This document shows positions 1,652 through 62,924 of a stretch of DNA of 64,000 bases, one piece after another. The stretch comes from Gammaproteobacteria bacterium (GTDB lineage: Bacteria; Pseudomonadota; Gammaproteobacteria; Tenderiales; Tenderiaceae). The stretch covers positions 4,499-68,498 of the forward strand of contig JAJRUN010000052.1 of the NCBI GenBank assembly GCA_024277755.1. Direction: 5' to 3'. The position numbers and the translations under genes were made by a program. The notes below the pieces were generated by a model. It did no database searches. It had not been told where the DNA came from and saw only the letters and a list, made by a program, of their open reading frames with translations. Numbering within the stretch: the stretch's first letter is position 1; every line of letters starts with the position of its first letter.

Positions 1652-3286
1652 TTACTCAATCGGTCGCACAGAGTCAGTCACAACCTGCGCATTAAAACTT
1701 TCCTGAATACGGCGCACATTTGGATCCGCATTAATGGCATCAACTGCCGCCTGCTGCTTATTCTCGGCCTGGCGTTTGTCTATCACGGCAGGCGTATGTT
1801 GCGTTTGAGTGCCTGCTGCAATGCTAAATTCCAATTTAATCGGCTCGCCAAAATACGTTTGCAAGGCCGCTTGCAACTGCATCTCCAATGATTTTCTACG
1901 CAACGAGGCATGCTGAGATGACAAGGCCAGCCGGATAACACCATTATCACGACTAATCATTTCTGAATTGGCAGCCAGTTGTTGCGCCATTCCCTTCAGC
2001 CCCAACTGGGCGACAATTTTATGCCATGACCCTGTCACTGCTGGACCGCGCTCCGCTATAGCAGATTTAACCGGTGCTGCAGAAGCCGTATTAGAATAAG
2101 CCTTAGAGGTAACGACCGGGGGCTGAGAGTTTTTCTGTGAAACCTGCTTCGGTGCGGTGTTTGAGGTTTGTATTTGTGTTTGTTGCAGACCGGATTGACT
2201 GCTGGCATCTGGACGAAAAGCCAGCATGCGCAACATAATCATCTCAAAACCGCTGCGCAGCTCAGGCGCAAAAGGCAAGTCGCGTCGACCAATCAAGCCA
2301 ATTTGATAATAAAGTTGGATATCTTCCTGCGGAATAGCTTGTGCAAGCGCGGTAATCGCCTCTTGTTCAGCGAGCCCTTCAGCCGTTTGTGGCACCACCT
2401 GTGCCAACGCTAATTTATGCAGTTGCGACACCAGCTCTGCCAGTACAGCAGTGAAATCAACCCCCTGCTGGGCCAGACCATTAATCGTCTCCAGAATGCT
2501 GGCGGCATCAGCATCAGCCAGTCCCTGCAATAATTTATAGACATGGCGGCGATCGACCGTGCCAAGCATGGCCCGCACCTCGTCGTCTACCAGCTTACCA
2601 CCGCCATAGGCAATGGCCTGATCCAGCAGGCTCAGAGCATCACGCATACTGCCATCAGCGCCTTCCGAAATCTGAGCAATGGCAGGTTTATCGAAACTAA
2701 TCCCCTCTTCACCCAGCACATATTCAAGGTGGCCGGCAATCATTTCCGGCGCCATGCGCTTTAGATTGAACTGCAGGCAACGAGACAAAATAGTCACAGG
2801 CAACTTCTGAGGATCGGTGGTCGCAAGCAGAAATTTCACATGTGGCGGAGGCTCTTCCAAGGTCTTCAATAAGGCATTGAAACTGTGGGTTGAGAGCATA
2901 TGCACCTCATCGATCAGATAGACCTTGAAGCGACCACGGGTCGGGGCATACTGGACATTTTCCAGCAGTTCACGGGTATCTTCAACTTTAGTGCGAGAAG
3001 CCGCATCCACCTCGATCAGATCAACAAAACGACCCTGATCAATCTCGGTACAGGCACTACACACACCGCATGGGCTGTAAGTAATCCCTTTTTCACAGTT
3101 CAATGATTTGGCAAAGATGCGCGCCACCGTGGTTTTGCCAACCCCACGAGTACCCGTGAAGAGATAGGCATGATGCAAGCGGTCATTGTCCAGGGCATTA
3201 ATCAGGGCACGCAGCACATGTTCCTGCCCAATCATGGCCGGAAAGCTCTTCGGCCGCCACTTTCGTGCCAGAACCTGGTAACTCAT
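1652..3286 (-). CDS. dnaX: DNA polymerase III subunit gamma/tau
   Basis: 544 aa. AAA+ clamp-loader motifs (GTRGVGKTT Walker A, DEVHML Walker B, SRC motif), zinc-binding cysteines, C-terminal tau-like low-complexity region. Confidence 0.9.
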   Translation of the reverse strand: MSYQVLARKWRPKSFPAMIGQEHVLRALINALDNDRLHHAYLFTGTRGVGKTTVARIFAKSLNCEKGITYSPCGVCSACTEIDQGRFVDLIEVDAASRTKVEDTRELLENVQYAPTRGRFKVYLIDEVHMLSTHSFNALLKTLEEPPPHVKFLLATTDPQKLPVTILSRCLQFNLKRMAPEMIAGHLEYVLGEEGISFDKPAIAQISEGADGSMRDALSLLDQAIAYGGGKLVDDEVRAMLGTVDRRHVYKLLQGLADADAASILETINGLAQQGVDFTAVLAELVSQLHKLALAQVVPQTAEGLAEQEAITALAQAIPQEDIQLYYQIGLIGRRDLPFAPELRSGFEMIMLRMLAFRPDASSQSGLQQTQIQTSNTAPKQVSQKNSQPPVVTSKAYSNTASAAPVKSAIAERGPAVTGSWHKIVAQLGLKGMAQQLAANSEMISRDNGVIRLALSSQHASLRRKSLEMQLQAALQTYFGEPIKLEFSIAAGTQTQHTPAVIDKRQAENKQQAAVDAINADPNVRRIQESFNAQVVTDSVRPIE

Positions 3287-3401
3287 TCGTTACCCCGAAT
3301 AAAGGGGGTGATGTCAGAAATAGTAATTAACATGGGGCACGATTCTACCCCAAAAAAGGGCTAATCACACGATTGGAAATAACTGAAAATACAGTCAATT
3401 A

Positions 3402-3518
3402 GGTGGCGGCCCACGCCCGCCGCTCCCCGGCACACGAGTCTGTTACTACCGTTGCTCCCTTCCAGGCCTGGCGGAGTTCGTAACGTATCGTTGCGGGGTG
3501 ACCGACGCGAGCCACCAT
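3402..3518 (-). ncRNA. ffs: signal recognition particle RNA (4.5S RNA, small bacterial type)
   Basis: Minus-strand transcript GGUGGCUCGCG...CCCCGCAACG...CCAGGCCUGGAAGGGAGCAACGG...CUCGUGUGCCGGGGAGC...GGGCCGCCACC. It aligns block-by-block with E. coli 4.5S RNA (CCCGCAACG, CCAGGUCAGGUCCGGAAGGAAGCAGC, GCGUGUGCCGGGA; 5' and 3' ends pair). Typical position immediately upstream of dnaX. Confidence 0.85.
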
Positions 3519-3577
3519 AAACTGGGTTCATCTGAAACAACTGCTAAGTTCAAACGAAGACGAATTCTAGCACAGCC

Positions 3578-3607
3578 AAACAAAAAAAGGGCTGTTTAGC
3601 CCCTTCG
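3578..3607 (-). terminator. putative rho-independent terminator after the cNMP-binding protein gene
   Basis: On the minus strand a GC stem (GGGCU/AGCCC with extensions) is followed by UUUUUUUG, directly 3' of the ORF ending at 3626. Confidence 0.45.
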
Positions 3608-3625
3608 ACTGTCATCACCCGGCAA

Positions 3626-4108
3626 TCAGTACCTGCCGTGGGTCTTGTTAATGTAGTTAGATAACTGATCTTTTTCCTGATTCATACGTAACAGGTTTGA
3701 ATGGGTAATGCGAAAGATAGAGCGCATCACTTTATAAACAATGCCGGGATGCTTTTCCAACAGTGACTCGAAGGCATCCGGTTCAAGGGTATAAACAACT
3801 GAATCGCCCTCTGCTTCCAGGGTTGCCTTACGCGGGCTGCGATCAACAAAGGCACGAGTACCTGCTACTTCCCCTACTTTCATGGTGTAGACGTGTTGTT
3901 GCTCACCCTCGGTCTCACTCACTACCTTTAGTTTGCCTTCCACTAAAACAAACAAGGTGTGCTCTGTGCCACTCTCATCAACCAGGCGTTCCCCCGCCTT
4001 TAGCTCACGTACATTCATAATACTGCTCAAAATTTCACATTCCTTGAGGGTCAACTCACCACCAAGAACAGATGAGCCAATCTTTTCAAAGTCTGGTTTA
4101 CGGGCCAT
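3626..4108 (-). CDS. stand-alone cyclic-nucleotide-binding (cNMP/CAP-effector) domain protein
   Basis: 160 aa. Beta-roll signature (GE..AL...RSATA-like: VGEVAGTRAFVDRSPRKATLEA) and a C-terminal helix, but no HTH DNA-binding domain. Confidence 0.75.
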   Translation of the reverse strand: MARKPDFEKIGSSVLGGELTLKECEILSSIMNVRELKAGERLVDESGTEHTLFVLVEGKLKVVSETEGEQQHVYTMKVGEVAGTRAFVDRSPRKATLEAEGDSVVYTLEPDAFESLLEKHPGIVYKVMRSIFRITHSNLLRMNQEKDQLSNYINKTHGRY

Positions 4109-13338: not shown

Positions 13339-14001
13339 CTAAGCAGTTTTAGGCACCATATAACCAACACCTCGTACGGTGACTATTAGCTCTTTTCCAA
13401 GTTTCTTTCTAATATGATGAATATGAACTTCGGTGGCGTTACTCTCCACTGCATCATTCCAGCTATAGAGTTTTTCTTCAATCTGTTCGCGCGACATTAC
13501 CCTGCCCGCATTTTCAAGTAACAAAAACAAAATTGAGAACTCTTTTGATGGCAGAAAAACGGGTTTGCCATTCAGTGTGACTGTGCGTGCAGCCGGGTCA
13601 AGAATAATAGAACCATAGCTTATGGCTGGCGACGCACGATCCATTCTGCGTCTGAGCAAAGCACGGATACGGGCATAGAACTCTTCAAGATCAAAGGGTT
13701 TGATCATGTAATCATCAGCACCGCAGTCTAGGCCCGAAACTCTATCAGCGGTTGTGTCATGAGCACTCAAGATCAAGACGGGGATTTTATTGCCCTCTTC
13801 ACGAATCTCTTTGAGTAAGCTTATCCCGCTTAAGGAAGGCAGACCAAGATCCAACACCATCAAATCAAATGGGGCAGTCGTTAATGCATTACGGGCATCA
13901 AGACCGTCCGTCAGCCAATCCACGGTATAGCCCACCTGTTCAAGCGCAGCACGCATACCCTGTCCCAACTGCGGATCATCTTCTACCAATAAAATTCGCA
14001 T
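13339..14001 (-). CDS. OmpR/PhoB-family response regulator (REC plus winged-helix), orphan
   Basis: MRILLVEDD...DLMVLDLGLP (phospho-Asp), KIPVLILSA, C-terminal trans_reg_C (VTVRGVGY). No histidine kinase gene adjacent. Confidence 0.85.
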   Translation of the reverse strand: MRILLVEDDPQLGQGMRAALEQVGYTVDWLTDGLDARNALTTAPFDLMVLDLGLPSLSGISLLKEIREEGNKIPVLILSAHDTTADRVSGLDCGADDYMIKPFDLEEFYARIRALLRRRMDRASPAISYGSIILDPAARTVTLNGKPVFLPSKEFSILFLLLENAGRVMSREQIEEKLYSWNDAVESNATEVHIHHIRKKLGKELIVTVRGVGYMVPKTA

Positions 14002-14309
14002 AACTTATTCTTATATGAATATAAATAATATGAGCGCAATAGTAACAAAATTAGCTAATAATAAAATAATAGTGGACACTGCTTTGAAGTTCATGAACAA
14101 ATATATTCCCTTTGAGAAATCAATTTAAGGGTTAGTTAAGGATTTATCATTAGAATTGAATATACCTTCAGAGGGGAATGCAAACTCCCGAGAGAGGGCT
14201 TAGACCAGTAGAGTGGTTTAGTTAGGCGGTGGTCATTATTCACGGGGATTATGGGACTAATGGACTGCCAACTATGTAATTTTATATTTTTATCATAGGA
14301 GATATTGTC

Positions 14310-14411
14310 ATGGGTGGAATGGGCGGAAGAGGCGGAAGAGGCGGCATGGGTGGTGGACGCGGTGGACGCGGTGGACGCGGTGGACGCGGTGGTGGTGGCG
14401 GTCGTCGTTAA
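14310..14411 (+). CDS. 33-codon Gly/Arg-repeat micro-protein (MGGMGGRGGRGGMGGGRGGRGGRGGRGGGGGRR)
   Basis: ATG at 14310, preceded by AGGAGA (14297-14302) at 7-nt spacing; stop TAA 14409-14411; strong terminator 50 nt downstream. Below the ORF-track size cut-off. Confidence 0.45.
   Translation: MGGMGGRGGRGGMGGGRGGRGGRGGRGGGGGRR
14352..14387 (+). repeat. 4 x perfect 9-bp tandem repeat GGTGGACGC (encodes GGR x4) inside the micro-ORF
   Basis: Directly visible: ggtggacgc ggtggacgc ggtggacgc ggtggacgc, followed by ggtggtggtggcggtcgtcgt. Confidence 0.9.
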
Positions 14412-14461
14412 TCGACTGACACATCACACACTATCCATGTGGCCTAGCGCCATATGATAAA

Positions 14462-14493
14462 AACGGGGAACTTCGGTTCCCCGTTTTGCATTT
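14462..14493 (+). terminator. rho-independent terminator
   Basis: AACGGGGAAC-TTCG-GTTCCCCGTT hairpin followed by TTGCATTT. Confidence 0.7.
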
Positions 14494-14525
14494 AAAGCCT
14501 CAGCATCCCAAAATAATCTACAGTT

Positions 14526-16292
14526 TCAGCTTTCCGCCTGCCGACCATTATCCGACTGCCACGCCACTGATGCCTGATAGGCGGGGTGGCAAGCCATCAA
14601 CTCTTCGTGTGTGCCCACCATAATCGAACCATCACCATTCAGATAAACAACACGATCAGCATTGCGAATGGAAGAAAAGCGATGCGCAATCACAAATGTC
14701 GTCCGCCCCAGTCGCAACGACTCCAACGCTCCCACCACCAACTGTTCAGACTCACTATCCAGCGCTGAAGTCGCTTCATCCATAATCAAAAATGGCGTAT
14801 TGCGTAACATTGCCTGGGCAATGGCGATACGTTGGTACTGCCCACCCGATAGCTCCACCCCAACTGAGCCAATACGGGTATTCAGACCACCCTCCAGTGA
14901 TTCGATAAAGACCCAGGCGCCACTAGACTCACAGGCCATGAGCAGCTGCTCTTCCGTTGCATCCGGCTGAGCCAGTAGCAGATTGGCACGAATTGTATCG
15001 TTAATTACCAACGGGCTTTGCCACACCACGCAAAAATGATCACGCAAAGAGGCCAGTGTCACTTTTGCTATGTCAACATTATCGATCAGAATACGGCCTT
15101 GCTGCGGGTCATGAAAGCGCATCAAAAGCTTCGCCAGTGTTGACTTACCTGCCCCGCTTGGCCCAACAAGAGCAATGGTTTCCCCTGCCTTAATCTTCAA
15201 GTCCACTTTATCCAGAATTGGCTCATTCTCCTCTGCGTAAGCAAAACTGACACCTTCAAAACAAATATCAGCTTTATTAATTTTTAGTGGTTTAGCATCT
15301 GCCGCATCACGGGTTTCAGGTTCAAGCGCAAAGACAGCTAAGACTCGCTCCGCCGCACCGAGATCCCCCTGCCACTGCATCGGTGCCTGGGTAAAACCTC
15401 GCACCGGCACAGATAAATAACCGAGGTAAATCAAAAAACTCACTAACTCGCCAATCCCCAGTCCTTGTGCATCGATCCGTTCAATGCCAACAAAGACAAT
15501 AGAGATGCCGCAAAGATAGATTAAGCCGGTCAAGGTAACTTCAAACGTTTCATCCAACCAGCGCGACTTCATTCCCCAATAGCGTGCCCGTTCAAACGCG
15601 CTGCCATGCTGATTAGAGATTCTTTCCTCAGCCCTGACCGAACTGATGCCACGCATATTGGCTAGCGTCTGTTCTTCAAACGCCAATAGTTCGCCGTTTT
15701 CATGAAAAAAATGCTGTGAAGCCTTACGTTTACGCGGCCCAAACAATGCCTGATGAATGATAAACAAGGGCACAAATAGCAACGCCACCAAAGCCAGATA
15801 CCAGTCGATCCAGAAAAGCATGCCGCAATAAAAGACCAGGGTGAGTAAATGAGATACCAGATAGAATGGCACCTCTAGCGCCATATCCTGAACACTATCA
15901 ACATCATTACTGAGACGTGCTAGCAGATCACCACGGTGCAGTGAAGAGGCCACCGAATCAGAGACAAAAAGCAAATGGCTCATGAGCGCCAATCTAACCC
16001 GGCCCACAAACCGCAGCCCGAGCCAACTGACCGACATAGTCGATGCCAACTGAAAAAGCTGATTAACAACAACGATGAGAATCAGCCACAGTAATACTTG
16101 CTTGACCTCTTCAAAGCGGCCAGCATGCAAGTGATCAAAGGGAATACCAATCAACCACACCATCACTGTGTTGGTGAGCGTTAATCCGAGAATAGCAAGC
16201 ACCACCAGGCCGATGAATCTTGCGTCAGGGCGAATATAAGGTATGAAATGCCGATATATCTGCCAAAAACCGGCTTCCTTAGCAATATTCAT
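14526..16292 (-). CDS. ABC exporter, fused permease/ATPase (MsbA/type I exporter-like)
   Basis: 588 aa: six-TM domain, then NBD with Walker A GPSGAGKST, signature LSGGQYQRIAIAQA, Walker B LIMDEATSALD. Confidence 0.85.
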   Translation of the reverse strand: MNIAKEAGFWQIYRHFIPYIRPDARFIGLVVLAILGLTLTNTVMVWLIGIPFDHLHAGRFEEVKQVLLWLILIVVVNQLFQLASTMSVSWLGLRFVGRVRLALMSHLLFVSDSVASSLHRGDLLARLSNDVDSVQDMALEVPFYLVSHLLTLVFYCGMLFWIDWYLALVALLFVPLFIIHQALFGPRKRKASQHFFHENGELLAFEEQTLANMRGISSVRAEERISNQHGSAFERARYWGMKSRWLDETFEVTLTGLIYLCGISIVFVGIERIDAQGLGIGELVSFLIYLGYLSVPVRGFTQAPMQWQGDLGAAERVLAVFALEPETRDAADAKPLKINKADICFEGVSFAYAEENEPILDKVDLKIKAGETIALVGPSGAGKSTLAKLLMRFHDPQQGRILIDNVDIAKVTLASLRDHFCVVWQSPLVINDTIRANLLLAQPDATEEQLLMACESSGAWVFIESLEGGLNTRIGSVGVELSGGQYQRIAIAQAMLRNTPFLIMDEATSALDSESEQLVVGALESLRLGRTTFVIAHRFSSIRNADRVVYLNGDGSIMVGTHEELMACHPAYQASVAWQSDNGRQAES

Positions 16293-18601: not shown

Positions 18602-18871
18602 TTAGCGACGCAAACCCAGACGTGAAATCAGGTCACGGTAACGAGTGAGGTCTTTCTTTTTCAGATAATCCAGCAGTTTACGACGCTGACTTACCATGCG
18701 CAGCAGACCTTGGCGTGAATGGTGATCATGTGAATGTTCTTTGAAGTGACCAGACAACTGATCAATACGGGCACTCAATAGCGCTACTTGAACTTCTGGA
18801 GAACCAGTGTCTCCTTCAGCACGTTGATAATCAGAAACAACCTTCTGTTTGGCTTCTGCATTTAATGACAT
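18602..18871 (-). CDS. rpsO: 30S ribosomal protein S15
   Basis: 89 aa [36 protein letters not shown]... Confidence 0.95.
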
Positions 18872-18981
18872 TTATCTCTCCCAAGATTTTACTAAAAGCT
18901 TAAAGCGGCACATTTTACAGCCGCAAAGGACCTGAAACAAGCGTGGAATCACCTCAATCCCCATAAAAACAGGGATTTGGC

Positions 18982-25103: not shown

Positions 25104-25180
<77 letters not shown>

Positions 25181-58355: not shown

Positions 58356-61300
58356 CTAAGATTGCTCAGACCGCAGTAAACCTTGAACAATATTCCTGGC
58401 CACATCAATATCGAAATTATTTAGCGCACGTTCTAAATCTTTTAGAGGCACAACATATTCACTGCCAGCAGCACACTGCTGTAAAGTCACCAGCTGTTTC
58501 TGCGCTGCGCCCAAGTCACTATCCAGAGATTGCAGCAGCTCATTCAGCAACTCAGGCACACTGGCGAGATCATGCCCGGCCGATGAGACCGACGACTCCA
58601 GCTCTTGTGTCTCCAGTGCGGCAAGGGCATCAATTACCTGTGTCAGGCTTTTGCGAAGAGTTTCAAATTCCGTCTTCACCGCGTCTGCGTCAGCCTGACG
58701 ACAAGCCTGCTCCATGGCGGCAGCCCTTTCATACAACTGCTTTGCCCCAAGGTTGCCGCCACTGCCCTTTAAGGTATGGGCCAGACGTTCGGCTTCGCGC
58801 CAGGCCTCCTGTTGAATCAACTGTTCAAATCGTGTTGCTGTCTCTGTGTGCCTGTCACGAAAATTGAGCAGAATACGCTTATAGGCCACCCCGTTACCGT
58901 TCAGACGTTGCAGGCCATCGGCGATATCGATGCCTGCCAGACTCTCAGGCATCGCCTCTGTCATCACGTCCTGTGTTTGTGTTGTTTCTGGTTTTTTGCC
59001 TGCTTGAACCCAGTCAGACAACTCTCTGAACAGCACACCTGGATCAATCGGTTTTGTCACATGGCCATTCATACCCGCCGCACGACTCTTTTCAGCATCA
59101 CCACTCAAGGCATGGGCAGTCATGGCAATGATAGGCAGTTTTTTGAAACGACTACCAAGGCTGCGAATTTTATCCGTGGCCAGAAAACCATCCATGACCG
59201 GCATTTGGATGTCCATCAAAACAACGTCGTAGTCATTTTCCTGCACTGCCTGCACTGCCTTTTCACCGTTGTCGCGGATGTCGACATCAAAACCCGCCGC
59301 GCTGAGTATCTCCTTCGCCACCTCCTGGTTGATGTCATTATCATCCACCAGCAGCAGTTTACGGCCGCCAAACCATCGCGCCTGACTACTATCATCAGCA
59401 TGATGTTCACCTGCATCACGGCTTCGCTCGCCCAGCATTTGCAACAGAACATTAAACAGCTCAGTGTGCCGAACTGGCTTGGTCATCCAGGCATCCAGAT
59501 CCGCCGCTGGAGCCATTTGCTGGTTGCCGGTGAGCATCATCAATTTCATACCACGCAAGCTGTTATCGCTGCGTATGGCACGTGCCAGTGCCAGGCCATC
59601 CATGTCTGGCATCATTAAATCAAGTATGGCAATGTCATATGGCTCGCCGCCCTTAGCCGCTGCTAGCAATTGCGCCAACGCCTCTTTGCCATTCGAGGAA
59701 AACCAAGTATGTGAAACCTGCCACAGCGTCAGGGTTCTCTTCATTAATATCCGCAGTGTTTCGTTATCATCAACCACCAGAATACGCTGCCGTGTCAACA
59801 GGTCAGAGACATGTTTCGTCGGTTTTCTATCAGTCACAATTTCAAGTGAAAGGTCAAAATTAAAGTCCGATCCCAAACCAGGTGAACTCGCCACACGAAT
59901 TTTGCCACCCATGGCCATGATCAACTTCTGGCTGATGGCCAGCCCCAGGCCAGTGCCACCATATTTTCGAGTATGAGAGCTATCCACCTGACTAAAGGCC
60001 TTGAACAAGTATTGCTGTTGCTCATACGTCATGCCAATACCACTATCCCTGACGCCAAACCGGACCAGGCCACTCTCAAGCCTTGCGGCATAGACCACAA
60101 TATCGCCTTGCTCCGTGAATTTAATGGCATTATTGATCAGGTTGGTCAACACCTGACGCAGACGGGTAGGATCTCCGTTGAGTGTTCGTGGCAAATCGGG
60201 ATCAACCGAACTAATCAGCTCTACCCCCTTCGCTTGCGCCCCATGAGCAAGCAGGGTTGCCGTATGTTCAAGCATGCTTTCCAGATCAAACGGGATAGAC
60301 TCTAAATCAAGTTTTTCTGCCTCCAGTTTGGAAAAATCAAGCACATCATTGATGACAGTCAACAGCATTTCACCGGAGTGTACCGCGGTCTCAGCAAAAC
60401 GTCGTTGCTTGTCATCCAGCCCACTCTTGCCTAACAAATGCAGCATGCCCAACACACCGTTCATAGGTGTACGCAACTCGTGACTCATAGTGGCTAGAAA
60501 CTGGCTTTTGGCCGTTGTCGCGGATTCTGCGGTCACCACCGCCTGTTTCAGTTGCCCTTGAATTTTCTTGTGCTCGCTAATGTCACGATAGCTCCATAAA
60601 TTTCTGCGATGCGTCTGACCTTGTTCATCCTCGAAAAAAACAGGCACATAATCCTGTTCATAGACACGGCCATCATTCAGTCGCAACTCTCTGCCGGCAA
60701 CAACAGACACACCATTCAAACACTCCTGACGCAACGACATAAACGCCTCGGGCTGACTAATCAGAGCCTGGTTCATTTTAAATTCAGTTTCGCAATCCTC
60801 GCCTTCGATCATCAACGGCATTTGATGCTTGTCAAACATATCGCAATAGGTTTGATTCAATACACTGACCTTGCCTGCGTCATCCTCCACCAGCAGCCCT
60901 GCGCGCAGATTCTCGATCAAACCTGTCATGAAACTGTTGTTGCTTTTCAATTCCGAAGCGATGTTGCGTTGCTCATCTTCCTTGTTAATGGCGTTGAAAA
61001 TCTGAGCGCAGGTGCCCAGAATCGGAGTTAACAATTCGACCACCGACTCATCATAGCCACCCTGACGATTGGCCAGCCCTACCATCCCCAGCAACCGTGT
61101 TCCGAGATATATAGGAATCCCGAGAAAACTGTTCAGTGGCGGATGGCCACCAGGCACACCTGAACTACGAGAATCATGTGCCGGGTCATTACTGATCACT
61201 GCCTCACCACTATGAATCACATGGCCAAACAAATTATTCAGATTATGAAACTCCAGGCCGTCGGCCACATTTTCCTCAAAAAATGCACGGCTGGCATCAT

Positions 61301-62924
61301 CCCAGGTGATATTGGTCTGGGCAAAGAGCTTTAAATACGGATTACCAGAATCATCCAGTCGCTTTTCTGCAATAAAACCAAATTCACTATCAGCCAAATC
61401 AAGAATGTTCGGCAACATCCCTTTAAAAAATTTTAGCGGATCAACGCCCGCTATATAACTTGATTGAGCATGACTGATGGTTTCAATCAGATGACGCTGC
61501 CTCGCCATCTGCGCTTCATCCTGTTTGCGTCTTGTGACATCACGCATCACCGCAGTAAAAAGGCGCTCCCCTCTTACCTCAGTCGAGCTCACCGTCAGCT
61601 CGATAGGAAAAACATGACCATCCTTGTGCCGGCCATATATCTCTCGCCCTATGCCGATAATCCGTGTATCGCCACTCTTACTAAAATGTCTGAGATAACC
61701 TTCATGTTTGGCCCGAGATGATTCCGGCACAAGGGTGTTAACATTCTGACCAATAATCTTTTCAGCACGGTAACCAAAAATCTGTTCTGCACTCGGATTG
61801 AATGTCCTGATCAGCCCCGCCTCATCAATCACCACAAGGCCATCCTCCACTGTTTTAAAAATACTGCTAAGGCGGCTCTCACTATCCTCCACTCGCATCA
61901 ATGAACGGGATAACCTAGCGAATATGATAGCTGCCAGAATAAAAATCAGCACTAGCACCGTGGCCGACAGAAACAAATCACGTTCAATTTGTTTTTTACG
62001 TTCCAGCAATGCTTCGTCTATTTGAAAAACAACATCGTCATAAAGCTGAAATATAGTGGCTACCGCATCACTGCCCACATCAAACAGTTGTCTGACTGAT
62101 TCTGCTTCGTGATTTTCAGTCAATTGATATGCAGTCACAAATACCTGGAACTTATCGATCATTTTTACAAGCGTATTGAAGGGCAACTCAAGTATATTTG
62201 CGCGCTGCGGATTTAGTTCACCCACTTTTTCAATCGCTTGCAGCAGCTTTACATTATTGCGTTTGACCTGGTCCATCAAAATTGCCAGCTCGACCCCTAT
62301 TTTTTCATCAGCCCGACTGATTTCAGTAGCGGCACTACTACGCCCACGAAGCTTGCCAAGCTCATCACTCAGCATTGGTAAATGGATAACCGCTATATCC
62401 ACCAATGAATGCACCCTCATGTTGGAGTCATATATCAGATTCGACTTTTCAGCAACAAGACGGAACAAGCTGATAACCTTGGCAATCAGGTGTGAATGTC
62501 TGGCAAACAGATCTTCCGGAGACAAGCTAAAGGTTTGCCCTTTGAGTCGCTGCCATTGCTCGCTGATGGTATCGACCTGTGCTCGAACCCCAAGCGCATC
62601 AACCTGTGAAAGCTGAGAAAGACTGCTATCCACCGCATCACCCGTTTCAATACAAGGGCCATAAAAACTGGACTTATTATCTTGCCTATAAACCGTGCAC
62701 AGCCCTCGATGCAGAGCCATTTTTTCCAGCAGGGGGCGCATCGAGTTAATCAATTCAACGCCTTGGCGTTCCTGTTCAATAATACGAAGCTCTTTGAAGT
62801 TGTCTGACAACAACAAGCTGCCCATAACCAGGATCATAAACAGGAAGGTGCCAAAAATGATGCTTAATTTTAATTGGCTACCTGGTCCGGGTAGAGAGTG
62901 TTTTTCACTCATCGGAGTTTTCAT
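58356..62924 (-). CDS. hybrid sensor histidine kinase/response regulator (periplasmic helical sensor-HAMP-PAS-GAF-PAS-HisKA-HATPase-REC-REC-HPt)
   Basis: 1522 aa; two TM helices flank an about 280-aa periplasmic all-helical domain (NIT-like). HisKA H-box [12 protein letters not shown]; HATPase G-boxes; REC1 [11 protein letters not shown]...DLMMPDMDG; REC2 [11 protein letters not shown]...DIQMPVMDG; HPt [12 protein letters not shown]. Confidence 0.9.

What the first reader, a model, noticed from the sequence alone, without database searches (positions are those of the whole stretch)
14297..14493. Expressed-looking 33-codon Gly/Arg-repeat micro-ORF built from a 4x 9-bp tandem repeat, divergent from an orphan response regulator
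A strong Shine-Dalgarno site (AGGAGA, 7-nt spacer), ATG, 33 codons encoding MGGMGGRGGRGGMGGGRGGRGGRGGRGGGGGRR, TAA, then a near-perfect intrinsic terminator. This is the full signature of a small independent gene missed by the 60-aa ORF cut-off.

The coding sequence contains four perfect GGTGGACGC repeats, so it could expand or contract by slippage. RGG/GAR-like peptides bind nucleic acids in eukaryotes; a free-standing bacterial version is unusual.

It is divergent (about 310 bp) from an orphan OmpR-type regulator and convergent with an ABC exporter. Alternatively the G-rich transcript could act as an sRNA.
Basis: seen in the sequence. Interest (0 to 1): 0.6.

Follow-up and report, generated by a model that had tools for sequence, protein, structure and literature searches.

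The report
Conserved regulator-controlled glycine-rich micro-gene family
The 33-codon Gly/Arg ORF is one member of a conserved, mostly unannotated family of tiny bacterial genes encoding glycine-rich peptides studded with Met or Arg, apparently switched on by the neighbouring two-component response regulator, and their function is still unknown.

Summary

It is not a chance ORF. The same unit (AAGGAG, ATG-GGT-GGA-ATG, a GGY-rich frame interrupted only by Met or Arg, TAA, 3' hairpin, terminator) recurs in more than 20 loci from related Gammaproteobacteria. Ten lineages were found through neighbouring genes, independently of the ORF sequence.

Strains with identical flanks differ by in-frame repeat indels (33 vs 40 aa, 27 vs 24 aa).

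Each unit carries an NTTAAK-N5-NTTAAK direct repeat (a PmrA-type box) 10-12 nt upstream of a -10 hexamer. The window's box is the only exact match in 64 kb. The adjacent orphan regulator is QseB/PmrA-like, and its homologues carry the same box upstream of their own operons.

A roughly 147-nt leader forms three helices supported by covariation and has no Rfam match.

Most likely this is a regulator-activated gene for a leaderless, disordered peptide. The family is mostly Gly/Met, like the GroEL tail; the RGG tract here is a lineage-specific expansion. Translation and function are inferred, not shown. The ABC exporter link is frequent but not obligatory.

The parts
13339..14001 (-). Orphan OmpR-family response regulator (QseB/PmrA-like), divergent from the micro-ORF. 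It is the presumed activator.
   Evidence: Pfam finds Response_reg plus Trans_reg_C. The best NCBIfam hits are QseB (260 bits, cutoff 345) and PmrA (237 bits, cutoff 330). The phospho-acceptor motif (EDD, VLD51LG, K101P) is intact by direct reading. There is no adjacent kinase. It is a divergent neighbour of the micro-ORF in 10 lineages.
14124..14140 (+). PmrA-type direct-repeat box TTTAAG-GGTTA-GTTAAG, the predicted binding site of the regulator.
   Evidence: It is the only exact TTAAK-N6-TTAAK in the 64-kb window. The same box sits at the same position in 17 of 21 micro-ORF units. The box also lies upstream of homologous regulator-kinase operons. It matches the published PmrA boxes TTTAAG-N5-TTTAAG and YTTAAK (PMC10927774).
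14151..14156 (+). Predicted -10 hexamer TAGAAT, 10 nt downstream of the box. The inferred transcription start is near 14163.
   Evidence: A -10-like hexamer (TAGAAT, TACTAT, TAGTAT, TATATT and similar) lies 10-12 nt after the box in all box-bearing units. The start site is inferred, not measured.
14163..14309 (+). Structured 5' leader: P1 14165-14169/14194-14198, P2 14200-14207/14214-14221, P3 14225-14238/14258-14269, then conserved single-stranded AACUAUGUAA (14270-14279).
   Evidence: RNAalifold and single-sequence folds. Covariance model R1 finds three loci it was not built from: L133 at 84 bits, L145 at 100 bits, L140 at 98 bits. 92.5% of cells pair, against 35-55% when partners are slid. 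Twelve pairs show double changes, reached by 0 of 500 shuffles. No Rfam family matches.
14297..14302 (+). Shine-Dalgarno AGGAGA, 7 nt before the ATG.
   Evidence: AAGGAG at 6-8 nt from the ATG is also present in loci recovered independently of the ORF sequence.
14310..14411 (+). Micro-ORF of 33 codons plus TAA: MGGMGGRGGRGGMGGGRGGRGGRGGRGGGGGRR.
   Evidence: Across the family, 357 Gly codons split into GGC 192, GGT 153, GGA 12 and GGG 0. Non-Gly residues are only Met (73), Arg (28, from five different codons) and Cys (1). The stop is always TAA. Gene callers called the orthologous ORF on six contigs.
14352..14392 (+). Perfect 9-bp tandem repeat (GGTGGACGC x 4.6) encoding (GGR)4. This is the slippage-prone tract.
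   Evidence: TRF. In-frame length polymorphism occurs between strains with identical flanks: L140 33 aa vs L141 40 aa, and L137 27 aa vs L138 24 aa.
14436..14456 (+). Conserved 3'-UTR hairpin CAUGUGGC-loop-GCCAUAUG, followed by an A/U-rich spacer.
   Evidence: for the fold. It is conserved in all relatives, with one compensatory variant (GUGGC/GCCAC in L004).
14460..14493 (.). Bidirectional intrinsic terminator shared with the convergent ABC exporter gene.
   Evidence: The hairpin is identical in L016, L056, L099 and L140.
14526..16292 (-). MsbA-like ABC half-transporter, convergent with the micro-ORF. It is a frequent but not obligatory neighbour.
   Evidence: Pfam finds ABC_membrane plus ABC_tran and no peptidase domain. 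It scores below the MsbA cutoff. The closest solved bacterial relatives are MsbA and Sav1866. It is convergent with the micro-ORF in 15 loci, down to 48% identity, but is replaced by P-II plus SCO1/SenC in L140 and L141.

Best explanation
This is a real, free-standing small gene. It belongs to an undescribed family of Gly-rich micro-proteins, (G2-7 [M/R])n, 21-63 aa long.

**Inferred mechanism**
1. The phosphorylated QseB/PmrA-family regulator encoded next door binds the TTTAAG-N5-GTTAAG direct repeat. This repeat overlaps the -35 position of the micro-ORF promoter.
2. Binding activates transcription from about 14163.
3. The roughly 330-nt transcript has a three-helix 147-nt leader, a strong SD, the 33-codon ORF, a conserved 3' hairpin and a bidirectional terminator.
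4. Translation gives a leaderless, Cys-free, non-hydrophobic peptide that is presumably disordered. In this genome it carries a net charge of +8.

**Evolution.** The repeat tract changes by in-frame slippage, while selection keeps Gly (GGY codons) and allows only Met or Arg between the Gly runs.

**Function.** The peptide therefore most likely acts through bulk physicochemical properties as an effector of this two-component regulon. These properties are a flexible, GroEL-tail-like Gly/Met chain that has become polycationic in this lineage. It may be handled by the usually adjacent MsbA-like ABC exporter.

**Shown versus inferred.** Conservation, the box, the leader structure, the codon pattern and the strain polymorphism are shown. 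Regulator binding, the start site, translation and the peptide's role are inferred.
For: **Independent recovery**
- Loci found through the ABC exporter (L001-L005) carry the unit.
- Loci found through the regulator (L133, L137, L138, L140, L141, L145) carry it too.
- So SD, start and frame conservation is not an artefact of the DNA pattern used.

**Codon signature**
- 345 of 357 Gly codons are GGY and none is GGG, against 13% GGG in the window's own genes.
- Arg is encoded by AGA, AGG, CGT, CGC and CGG.
- No Ala, Val, Asp, Glu, Ser or Trp occurs, although all are one mutation away from GGN.
- The stop is TAA in every member.

**Strain polymorphism.** Indels are in frame despite identical flanks.

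**Promoter**
- The box plus a -10 hexamer is present in 17 of 21 units.
- The window's box is unique in 64 kb.
- The same box lies upstream of homologous regulator-kinase operons.
- It matches published PmrA boxes.

**Regulator.** It is QseB/PmrA-like. Orphan copies of the regulator sit next to the micro-ORF in 10 of 10 lineages.

**Leader.** The structure is supported by covariation.

**Independent transcription unit.** No co-directional downstream gene occurs in any locus.

**Gene calling.** Gene callers called the ORF on six contigs.
Against: - There are no expression, ribosome-profiling or proteomic data.
- The sequence is low-complexity, so homology statistics cannot be applied.
- Triplet periodicity and in-frame indels could partly follow from slippage of triplet-based repeats. 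All three forward frames are open in G-rich DNA.
- GGG avoidance could also be an RNA- or DNA-level constraint.
- The regulator scores below the QseB and PmrA equivalog cutoffs. Its kinase and signal are unknown.
- The second half-site begins with G rather than Y.
- Four family members lack an exact box.
- The ABC exporter link is broken in the closest relatives, L140 and L141.
- The Met-to-Arg shift shows that no single chemical property (metal binding, nucleic-acid binding) is conserved.
- The conserved leader and the 3' hairpin with an A/U-rich spacer would equally suit a regulatory RNA.
Confidence: 0.65

Rival explanations
1. Regulatory RNA, either purely non-coding or dual-function. The functional entity would be the roughly 330-nt transcript: the structured leader, the G-rich core, and a 3' hairpin plus A/U spacer plus terminator that resembles an Hfq-binding module. 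Translation of the ORF would be incidental or would only stabilise the RNA.
For: - The leader helices are supported by covariation, and there are conserved single-stranded motifs.
- The 3' hairpin is conserved next to the terminator.
- The peptide sequence and length are hypervariable even between strains.
- No function can be assigned to the peptide.
Against: - A strong SD at optimal spacing, the ATG, the Gly frame and the TAA stop are kept in every member, including those found independently of the ORF.
- Amino-acid-level constraint is visible: only G, M and R occur, with Arg from five codons.
- A G-rich core is an unlikely seed for purine-rich translation-initiation regions.
- GGA (CsrA-type) motifs are not conserved across the family.
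- No Rfam family matches.
Confidence: 0.2
2. Exported peptide. The micro-protein would be the cargo of the convergent MsbA-like ABC exporter, acting as a leaderless secreted, envelope-acting or bacteriocin-like peptide. Where the asparagine-synthase-like gene precedes the exporter, the peptide might be C-terminally amidated.
For: - The micro-ORF and exporter are convergent in 15 loci, down to 48% exporter identity, while other neighbours change.
- Tandem paralogous copies occur.
- Lineages with the asnB-like plus ABC operon have Arg-poor peptides ending in Met. Most lineages without it have peptides ending in Arg.
Against: - The exporter is replaced by P-II plus SCO1/SenC in the closest relatives.
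- It is absent near L085, L053 and L012.
- The exporter has no peptidase domain and the peptide has no leader.
- The asnB-like protein passes the genuine asparagine synthase model.
- The C-terminus correlation may simply reflect phylogeny, and L039 is an exception.
- Convergent genes sharing one terminator can stay linked without any functional tie.
Confidence: 0.2
3. RGG/GAR-type nucleic-acid-binding or condensate-forming peptide.
For: The window peptide has six RGG motifs and a net charge of +8.
Against: - Orthologues in same-genus relatives have 2-5 Arg. More distant members have 0-1 Arg and are Gly/Met instead.
- The (GGR)4 tract is a perfect, hence recent, 9-bp expansion.
Confidence: 0.1
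4. Leader peptide or attenuator that senses glycyl- or methionyl-tRNA supply. Alternatively, a chance ORF inside a GGN microsatellite.
For: Extreme codon bias towards Gly. All three frames are open in G-rich DNA.
Against: - Every unit ends in its own terminator and is followed by a convergent gene, never a co-directional one.
- Conservation of the SD, ATG, TAA, box, leader and 3' hairpin across more than 20 loci excludes chance.
Confidence: 0.03

Closest known systems
PmrA/BasR-activated promoters and two-component-controlled small proteins (e.g. PmrR, MgrB; recalled from the literature, not tested here)
   Same: The promoter architecture matches: a hexamer direct repeat with 11-bp period next to a -10 element (for the published boxes). 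A very small ORF appears to be a direct target of an OmpR-family regulator.
   Different: PmrR and MgrB are hydrophobic membrane peptides with defined protein targets. This peptide has no hydrophobic segment, is 67% Gly and is hypervariable. The regulator is not an equivalog of PmrA or QseB.
GroEL/Hsp60 C-terminal Gly-Met tail, (GGM)4M
   Same: The composition and repeat logic match (GGM, GGGM). Such tails are flexible with polyproline-II propensity (PMC12571646) and matter for chaperonin function (PMC11978752). The DNA pattern for the micro-ORF start also hit many groEL 3' ends.
   Different: The tail is covalently part of a 57-kDa chaperonin. Here the repeat is a free-standing gene with its own promoter, it contains Arg in many lineages, and it coexists with a normal GGM-tailed GroEL (L039).
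Eukaryotic RGG/GAR motifs
   Same: There are six RGG repeats in this window's version.
   Different: The trait is not conserved in the family. There is no accompanying folded domain, and the context is bacterial and free-standing.
Dual-function sRNAs (SgrS/SgrT, RNAIII/hld; recalled, not tested)
   Same: A short structured transcript with an embedded micro-ORF and an intrinsic terminator.
   Different: No base-pairing target or seed has been identified. The ORF occupies the middle of the RNA and carries the strongest sequence constraint.
Leaderless peptide plus dedicated ABC exporter systems (e.g. the microcin J25 cluster with an Asn-synthase-like cyclase and the McjD exporter)
   Same: A small peptide gene lies next to an MsbA-like ABC half-transporter. 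In some relatives an Asn-synthase-family gene is present as well.
   Different: - There is no leader, no protease gene, and no Asp or Glu for lactam formation.
- The Asn-synthase homologue keeps the N-terminal Cys and passes the true AsnB model.
- The genes are convergent and the linkage is not universal.

Membership tests
PmrA/BasR-type regulated promoter | Direct repeat YTTAAK-N5-YTTAAK (TTTAAG-N5-TTTAAG in A. baumannii) | tested here: met
   TTTAAG-GGTTA-GTTAAG at 14124-14140. The second half-site starts with G rather than Y. It is unique in the window and conserved in 17 of 21 units. Published consensus.
PmrA/BasR-type regulated promoter | Box placed at or near the -35 position, with a -10 hexamer a fixed short distance downstream | tested here: met
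   A -10-like hexamer lies 10-12 nt after the box in all box-bearing units. The start site itself was not measured.
PmrA/BasR-type regulated promoter | The cognate regulator is a PmrA (or QseB) orthologue and binds the box | tested here: inconclusive
   The best NCBIfam hits are QseB (260 bits) and PmrA (237 bits), both below their equivalog cutoffs of 345 and 330. The same box lies upstream of homologous regulator operons. Binding cannot be tested with these tools.
Chaperonin C-terminal GGM tail | Gly-Met repeat at the C-terminus of a Cpn60/GroEL polypeptide | tested here: not met
   The ORF starts at its own SD and ATG, with an upstream in-frame stop. It lies between the regulator and ABC exporter genes. 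The resemblance is compositional only.
RGG/GAR motif proteins | Clustered RGG repeats conserved among orthologues | tested here: not met
   There are six RGG motifs in the window. Orthologues replace most Arg with Met or Gly.
Transcription-attenuation leader peptides | A co-directional regulated gene lies downstream of the leader ORF and terminator | tested here: not met
   The downstream gene is convergent in every locus examined.
Class II microcin / double-glycine bacteriocin systems | N-terminal double-glycine leader on the peptide, and a C39 peptidase domain on the ABC exporter | tested here: not met
   The exporter is 588 aa with only ABC_membrane and ABC_tran domains. The peptide has no leader distinct from its repeat.
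Lasso peptide clusters | Precursor with Asp or Glu at core position 7-9, a leader protease, and an Asn-synthase-like cyclase | tested here: not met
   - No Asp or Glu occurs in any family peptide.
- No protease gene is present.
- The asnB-like gene is absent from the window.
- In relatives that gene matches true asparagine synthase above its cutoff and the lasso cyclase model far below its cutoff.
Known RNA families (Rfam 15) | A match at or near a family's gathering score | tested here: not met
   Only chance-level hits occur in 13900-14600. The whole-window gathering scan finds only SRP RNA, a tRNA and the S15 leader.
Known protein families (Pfam, NCBIfam) | A profile match | tested here: not met
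   No families matched the peptide at E <= 1. Large-database searches returned nothing because of low complexity.
Intrinsic (Rho-independent) terminator | A GC-rich hairpin followed by a U tract | tested here: met
   It is bidirectional.

The most novel reading that the evidence does not exclude
The family would be a new class of ribosomally made low-complexity effector peptides. These would be free-standing, GroEL-tail-like (Gly-Met) or polycationic (Gly-Arg) chains, produced on command of a PmrA/QseB-type two-component system. They would act in trans, either as soluble anti-aggregation or antioxidant 'tails', or as exported envelope-modifying peptides. In asnB-bearing lineages the exported form would be C-terminally amidated. 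Repeat length would be tuned by slippage.
Probability: 0.15. Interest if true: 0.8.

Novelty: new variant of a known kind. Interest (0 to 1): 0.62.

Why it matters
- **A blind spot in annotation.** Low-complexity micro-proteins like this escape homology searches and protein family databases, and gene callers pick them up only on some contigs. Here, synteny, promoter and RNA-structure evidence rescue one such gene and show it is a conserved family across sulfur-oxidiser-like Gammaproteobacteria.
- **A compact experimental system.** An orphan regulator, its box, a structured leader and a 33-codon target all lie within about 1.2 kb. This is convenient for studying what this two-component system senses.
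- **A question about function.** It asks what a free Gly/Met or Gly/Arg chain does in a bacterial cell. Until now this composition was known in bacteria mainly as the functionally important GroEL tail.
- **A natural example of repeat evolution.** It shows a coding microsatellite evolving under compositional rather than positional selection.

Tried and rejected
**Searches that gave nothing**
- A 13-member family profile gave 0 hits at E <= 10.
- Exhaustive phmmer against 1.84 billion representatives gave 0 hits.
- Exact look-ups of 10 family peptides were not in the collection.
- Literature searches for GGM/GGR micro-ORFs, literal peptide strings, Tenderia, and small proteins linked to two-component systems found only GroEL-tail and eukaryotic RGG papers.

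**Ideas considered and rejected**
- *CsrA/Rsm sponge.* The window has 7 GGA motifs in the ORF, but relatives have about one.
- *Start-codon hairpin (GUUUCGCC-AUG-GGUGGAAU).* It is -6.9 kcal/mol in L016 but only -0.5 in the window and shows no double changes, so it is not treated as functional.
- *Box-like matches at the pnp stop codon in L001 and L005.* These are coincidental, being TAA inside GCTTAAG in the wrong orientation.
- *Alternative frames.* The 50-aa TTG ORF (14305-14457) owes its start to a window-specific TTGTC. The antisense 39-aa ORF spans a 3' UTR that relatives have rearranged. Neither is conserved.

**Caveat on the metagenome scan.** Most hits of the DNA pattern were groEL 3' ends, DnaJ G/F regions and other Gly-rich proteins with an internal ATG, so these were discarded.

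**Organism.** It was not identified. The 100%-identical regulator is on an unnamed NCBI contig of 72 kb.
Full report
**1. The observation**

Reading 13700-15000 and listing ORFs confirms the description.
- AGGAGA lies at 14297-14302, followed by a 7-nt spacer and ATG at 14310.
- The ORF has 33 codons, MGGMGGRGGRGGMGGGRGGRGGRGGRGGGGGRR, and ends in TAA at 14409-14411.
- Tandem Repeats Finder reports 4.6 perfect copies of GGTGGACGC at 14352-14392.
- Downstream there are two hairpins. The second is a 12-bp stem with a UUCG loop and a T run (14460-14493).
- The 89-nt 3' region folds at -30.9 kcal/mol, z = -4.8.
- The terminator scores on both strands. It therefore also ends the convergent ABC exporter gene (14526-16292, minus strand).

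The divergent gene (13339-14001, minus strand) is an OmpR-family response regulator. Its best NCBIfam matches are QseB and PmrA, both below their equivalog cutoffs. No kinase gene is adjacent; the only kinase motifs in the window are about 44 kb away. The peptide matches no Pfam or NCBIfam model, and the region matches no Rfam family.

**2. It is a conserved family, not a chance ORF**

*Loci found through the ABC exporter.* Using the exporter protein as bait in one-genome-per-species contigs gave five MAG loci (Ca. Tenderia and Chromatiaceae, 69% identity). Each has one or two micro-ORFs immediately downstream of, and convergent with, the exporter. They share the same start, AAGGAG-N6-ATG-GGT-GGA-ATG. 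Examples are MGGMNGGRGGMGGGGMGGGGGGGM and MGGMGGGGGGMGGGGGMGGGGGMGGGGGM.

*Loci found through a DNA pattern.* A pattern for the SD and start was scanned over metagenome contigs. Many hits were false positives, mostly groEL 3' ends encoding the ...GGMGGMGGMM tail. It also returned about a dozen true free-standing units.
- Three of these (L016, L056, L099) come from same-genus relatives of the window organism (UvrB 94-97% identical).
- They have identical synteny, uvrB-aspC-gspH-regulator-microORF-ABC, and an identical terminator.
- Their peptides differ, for example MGGMGGMGGRGGMGGMGGMGGMGGGGRGR and MGGMGGRGGGGMGGGGMGGGGRGGMGGGGGGR.

*Loci found through the regulator.* Homologues of the regulator were traced to their contigs. 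This added L133, L137, L138, L140, L141 and L145, all carrying the unit.

The exporter- and regulator-derived loci were found without reference to the ORF sequence. Conservation of SD, ATG, frame and TAA in them is therefore not ascertainment bias. On six of these contigs the public gene callers had called the ORF at 29-40 aa.

**3. Evidence that the peptide frame matters**

The first six codons were constrained by my search pattern, so they are skipped. The remaining 459 codons of 17 members break down as follows:

| Codon class | Count |
|---|---|
| Gly GGC | 192 |
| Gly GGT | 153 |
| Gly GGA | 12 |
| Gly GGG | 0 |
| Met | 73 |
| Arg (AGA, AGG, CGT, CGC, CGG) | 28 |
| Cys | 1 |

- GGG makes up 13% of Gly codons in the window's long genes, yet it is absent here.
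- Ala, Val, Asp, Glu, Ser and Trp never occur, although each is one mutation away from a Gly codon.
- The stop is TAA in every member.

Strains with identical flanks and an identical regulator protein differ by in-frame indels:
- L140, MGGMGGGGGRGGGGMGGGGRGGRGGMGGGGGGR (33 aa), versus L141 (40 aa).
- L137 (27 aa) versus L138 (24 aa).

Caveats apply. Triplet-based repeats tend to slip in frame anyway. All forward frames are open in G-rich DNA. There are no expression data.

**4. Promoter and regulator**

Aligning upstream regions shows one invariant block in otherwise poorly conserved DNA: NTTAAK-N5-NTTAAK. In the window this is TTTAAG-GGTTA-GTTAAG at 14124-14140.
- It is the only exact TTAAK-N6-TTAAK in 64 kb. 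About 0.73 would be expected anywhere in the window, so a chance match within the roughly 200 nt upstream of this ORF is very unlikely.
- The box occurs in 17 of 21 units.
- It is always followed 10-12 nt later by a -10-like hexamer (TAGAAT here, 14151-14156). This predicts a start near 14163.
- The motif equals the published PmrA boxes: TTTAAG-N5-TTTAAG in A. baumannii and YTTAAK repeats in Salmonella (PMC10927774).
- The same box lies upstream of operons encoding 66-69% identical regulators with their kinases (L127, L128, L130-L136). This is the usual autoregulatory position and ties the box to this regulator family.

In the Tenderia-type genomes the regulator-kinase operon sits about 7 kb from the micro-ORFs; L134 and L004 are the same contig. 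In the window's lineage the regulator has lost its kinase neighbour and sits directly beside the micro-ORF. This holds in 10 of 10 lineages with an orphan copy.

**5. The transcript**

The 147-nt leader (14163-14309) folds into three helices. A covariance model built from six sequences recovers three loci it was not built from: L133 at 84 bits, L145 at 100 bits and L140 at 98 bits.

On nine sequences:
- 92.5% of pair cells are standard pairs, against 35-55% when partners are slid by 1-3 columns.
- Twelve pairs carry double changes, a value reached by 0 of 500 shuffles. Eight of these pairs are in P3.

The alignment was fitted to the model and the sample is small, so this is good but not definitive support.

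A short conserved single-stranded element (CAAC-Y-AUGUAA) follows P3 in most members but not all; it is absent in L140. A hairpin that places the AUG in its loop is stable in relatives but not in the window, and I do not rely on it. The 3' UTR keeps a hairpin (AUGGC-loop-GCCAU, with one compensatory variant), then an A/U-rich spacer, then the terminator.

**6. Neighbours and what they say about function**

The exporter is an MsbA/Sav1866-like half-transporter without a peptidase domain.
- It is convergent with the micro-ORF in 15 loci, including two where it is only 48-49% identical and the other neighbours differ (L039, L078).
- It is replaced by P-II and SCO1/SenC genes in L140 and L141, the closest relatives by regulator identity.
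- It is absent near the long pure-GGM members L085, L053 and L012.

Tenderia-type loci and L137 have an asparagine-synthase gene fused in an operon with the exporter. The window lacks this gene. Lineages with it have Arg-poor peptides ending in Met. Most lineages without it end in Arg. This is an intriguing correlation but may be purely phylogenetic.

No unit is ever followed by a co-directional gene, which rules out an attenuator leader peptide.

**7. Interpretation**

The best-supported reading is a two-component-activated, independently transcribed small gene. Its product is a leaderless, disordered Gly-rich peptide. The family norm is Gly/Met, which compositionally resembles the GroEL C-terminal tail. 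That tail is flexible, prone to polyproline-II conformation and functionally important (PMC12571646, PMC11978752). The Arg-rich, +8 version in this window is a lineage-specific variant produced by a recent 9-bp expansion.

What the peptide does is not determined. I favour an effector acting through bulk properties. Export by the ABC transporter is a weaker sub-hypothesis. The main rival is an RNA-level or dual function.

**8. Novelty**

No protein or RNA family, database entry or paper describing such free-standing GGM/GGR micro-ORFs was found. The searchable literature is limited to open-access papers, and low-complexity peptides defeat homology tools.

I class it as a new variant of a known kind: small ORFs under direct two-component control. 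Its composition is unprecedented and it has an undescribed structured leader.

Noticed in passing
L004:5907-6032 (-): This is a divergent paralogue of the micro-ORF with a Pro-rich N-terminal half, MPVVIAPPIIPAPPAPAPGGMGMGGMGMGGMGGMGGGGMGM. It has its own ATTAAT-N5-CTTAAT box and a TACAAT -10 hexamer. It sits in tandem with a canonical GGM copy.
   Followed up: partly
L001-L005 (about 1959-3980, +) and L137:1-563: A 673-aa glutamine-hydrolysing asparagine synthase gene overlaps the start of the ABC exporter gene, forming an operon, in Tenderia-type relatives. It is absent from the window. Its presence correlates with micro-peptides that end in Met and are Arg-poor.
   Followed up: partly
L140:175-1378 and L141: In the closest relatives by regulator identity, the ABC exporter is replaced by P-II and SCO1/SenC (copper chaperone-like) genes. 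The breakpoint lies exactly at the shared terminator.
   Followed up: partly
L127, L130-L136 (regulator at about 3001-3663 with downstream genes): Homologous regulators form an operon with three further genes. These are a short histidine kinase of 242-265 aa without a recognisable sensor domain, a phosphonate-binding-like periplasmic protein, and a PAS-domain kinase. The PmrA-type box lies in their upstream region and matches the pattern on both strands in most of these loci.
   Followed up: no
L082:50-1129: A GGQ/GGM-repeat micro-ORF (MGGMGGGMGGQGGMGGQGG...) lies divergent from a CpxR-like response regulator. This is the genomic position that cpxP occupies in E. coli. The contig ends inside the ORF.
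   Followed up: no
L085:7608-7799 (-) and L017:1-85 (-): Long pure-GGM members (63 aa in L085) lie beside a fused MFS/spermidine-synthase gene and a pseudopilin cluster, with no ABC exporter nearby. L085 still has a perfect CTTAAG-N5-CTTAAT box.
   Followed up: partly
L039:1413-3056: A groEL gene with a normal ...GGMGGMGGMM tail lies immediately upstream of the ABC exporter, which in turn faces a micro-ORF. The free GGM peptide therefore does not replace a missing chaperonin tail.
   Followed up: yes
window 18815-18931 (-), 3411-3507 (-), 25104-25180 (-): These are Rfam or ARAGORN matches of ordinary housekeeping RNAs: the S15 leader upstream of rpsO-pnp, the small SRP RNA, and tRNA-Met (CAT).
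   Followed up: no
window 58356-62924 (-): This is a 1522-aa ORF carrying the only histidine-kinase motifs in the window (H-box HELRTP and G-box GTGLGLAIS). It is a possible but untested partner for the orphan regulator.
   Followed up: no
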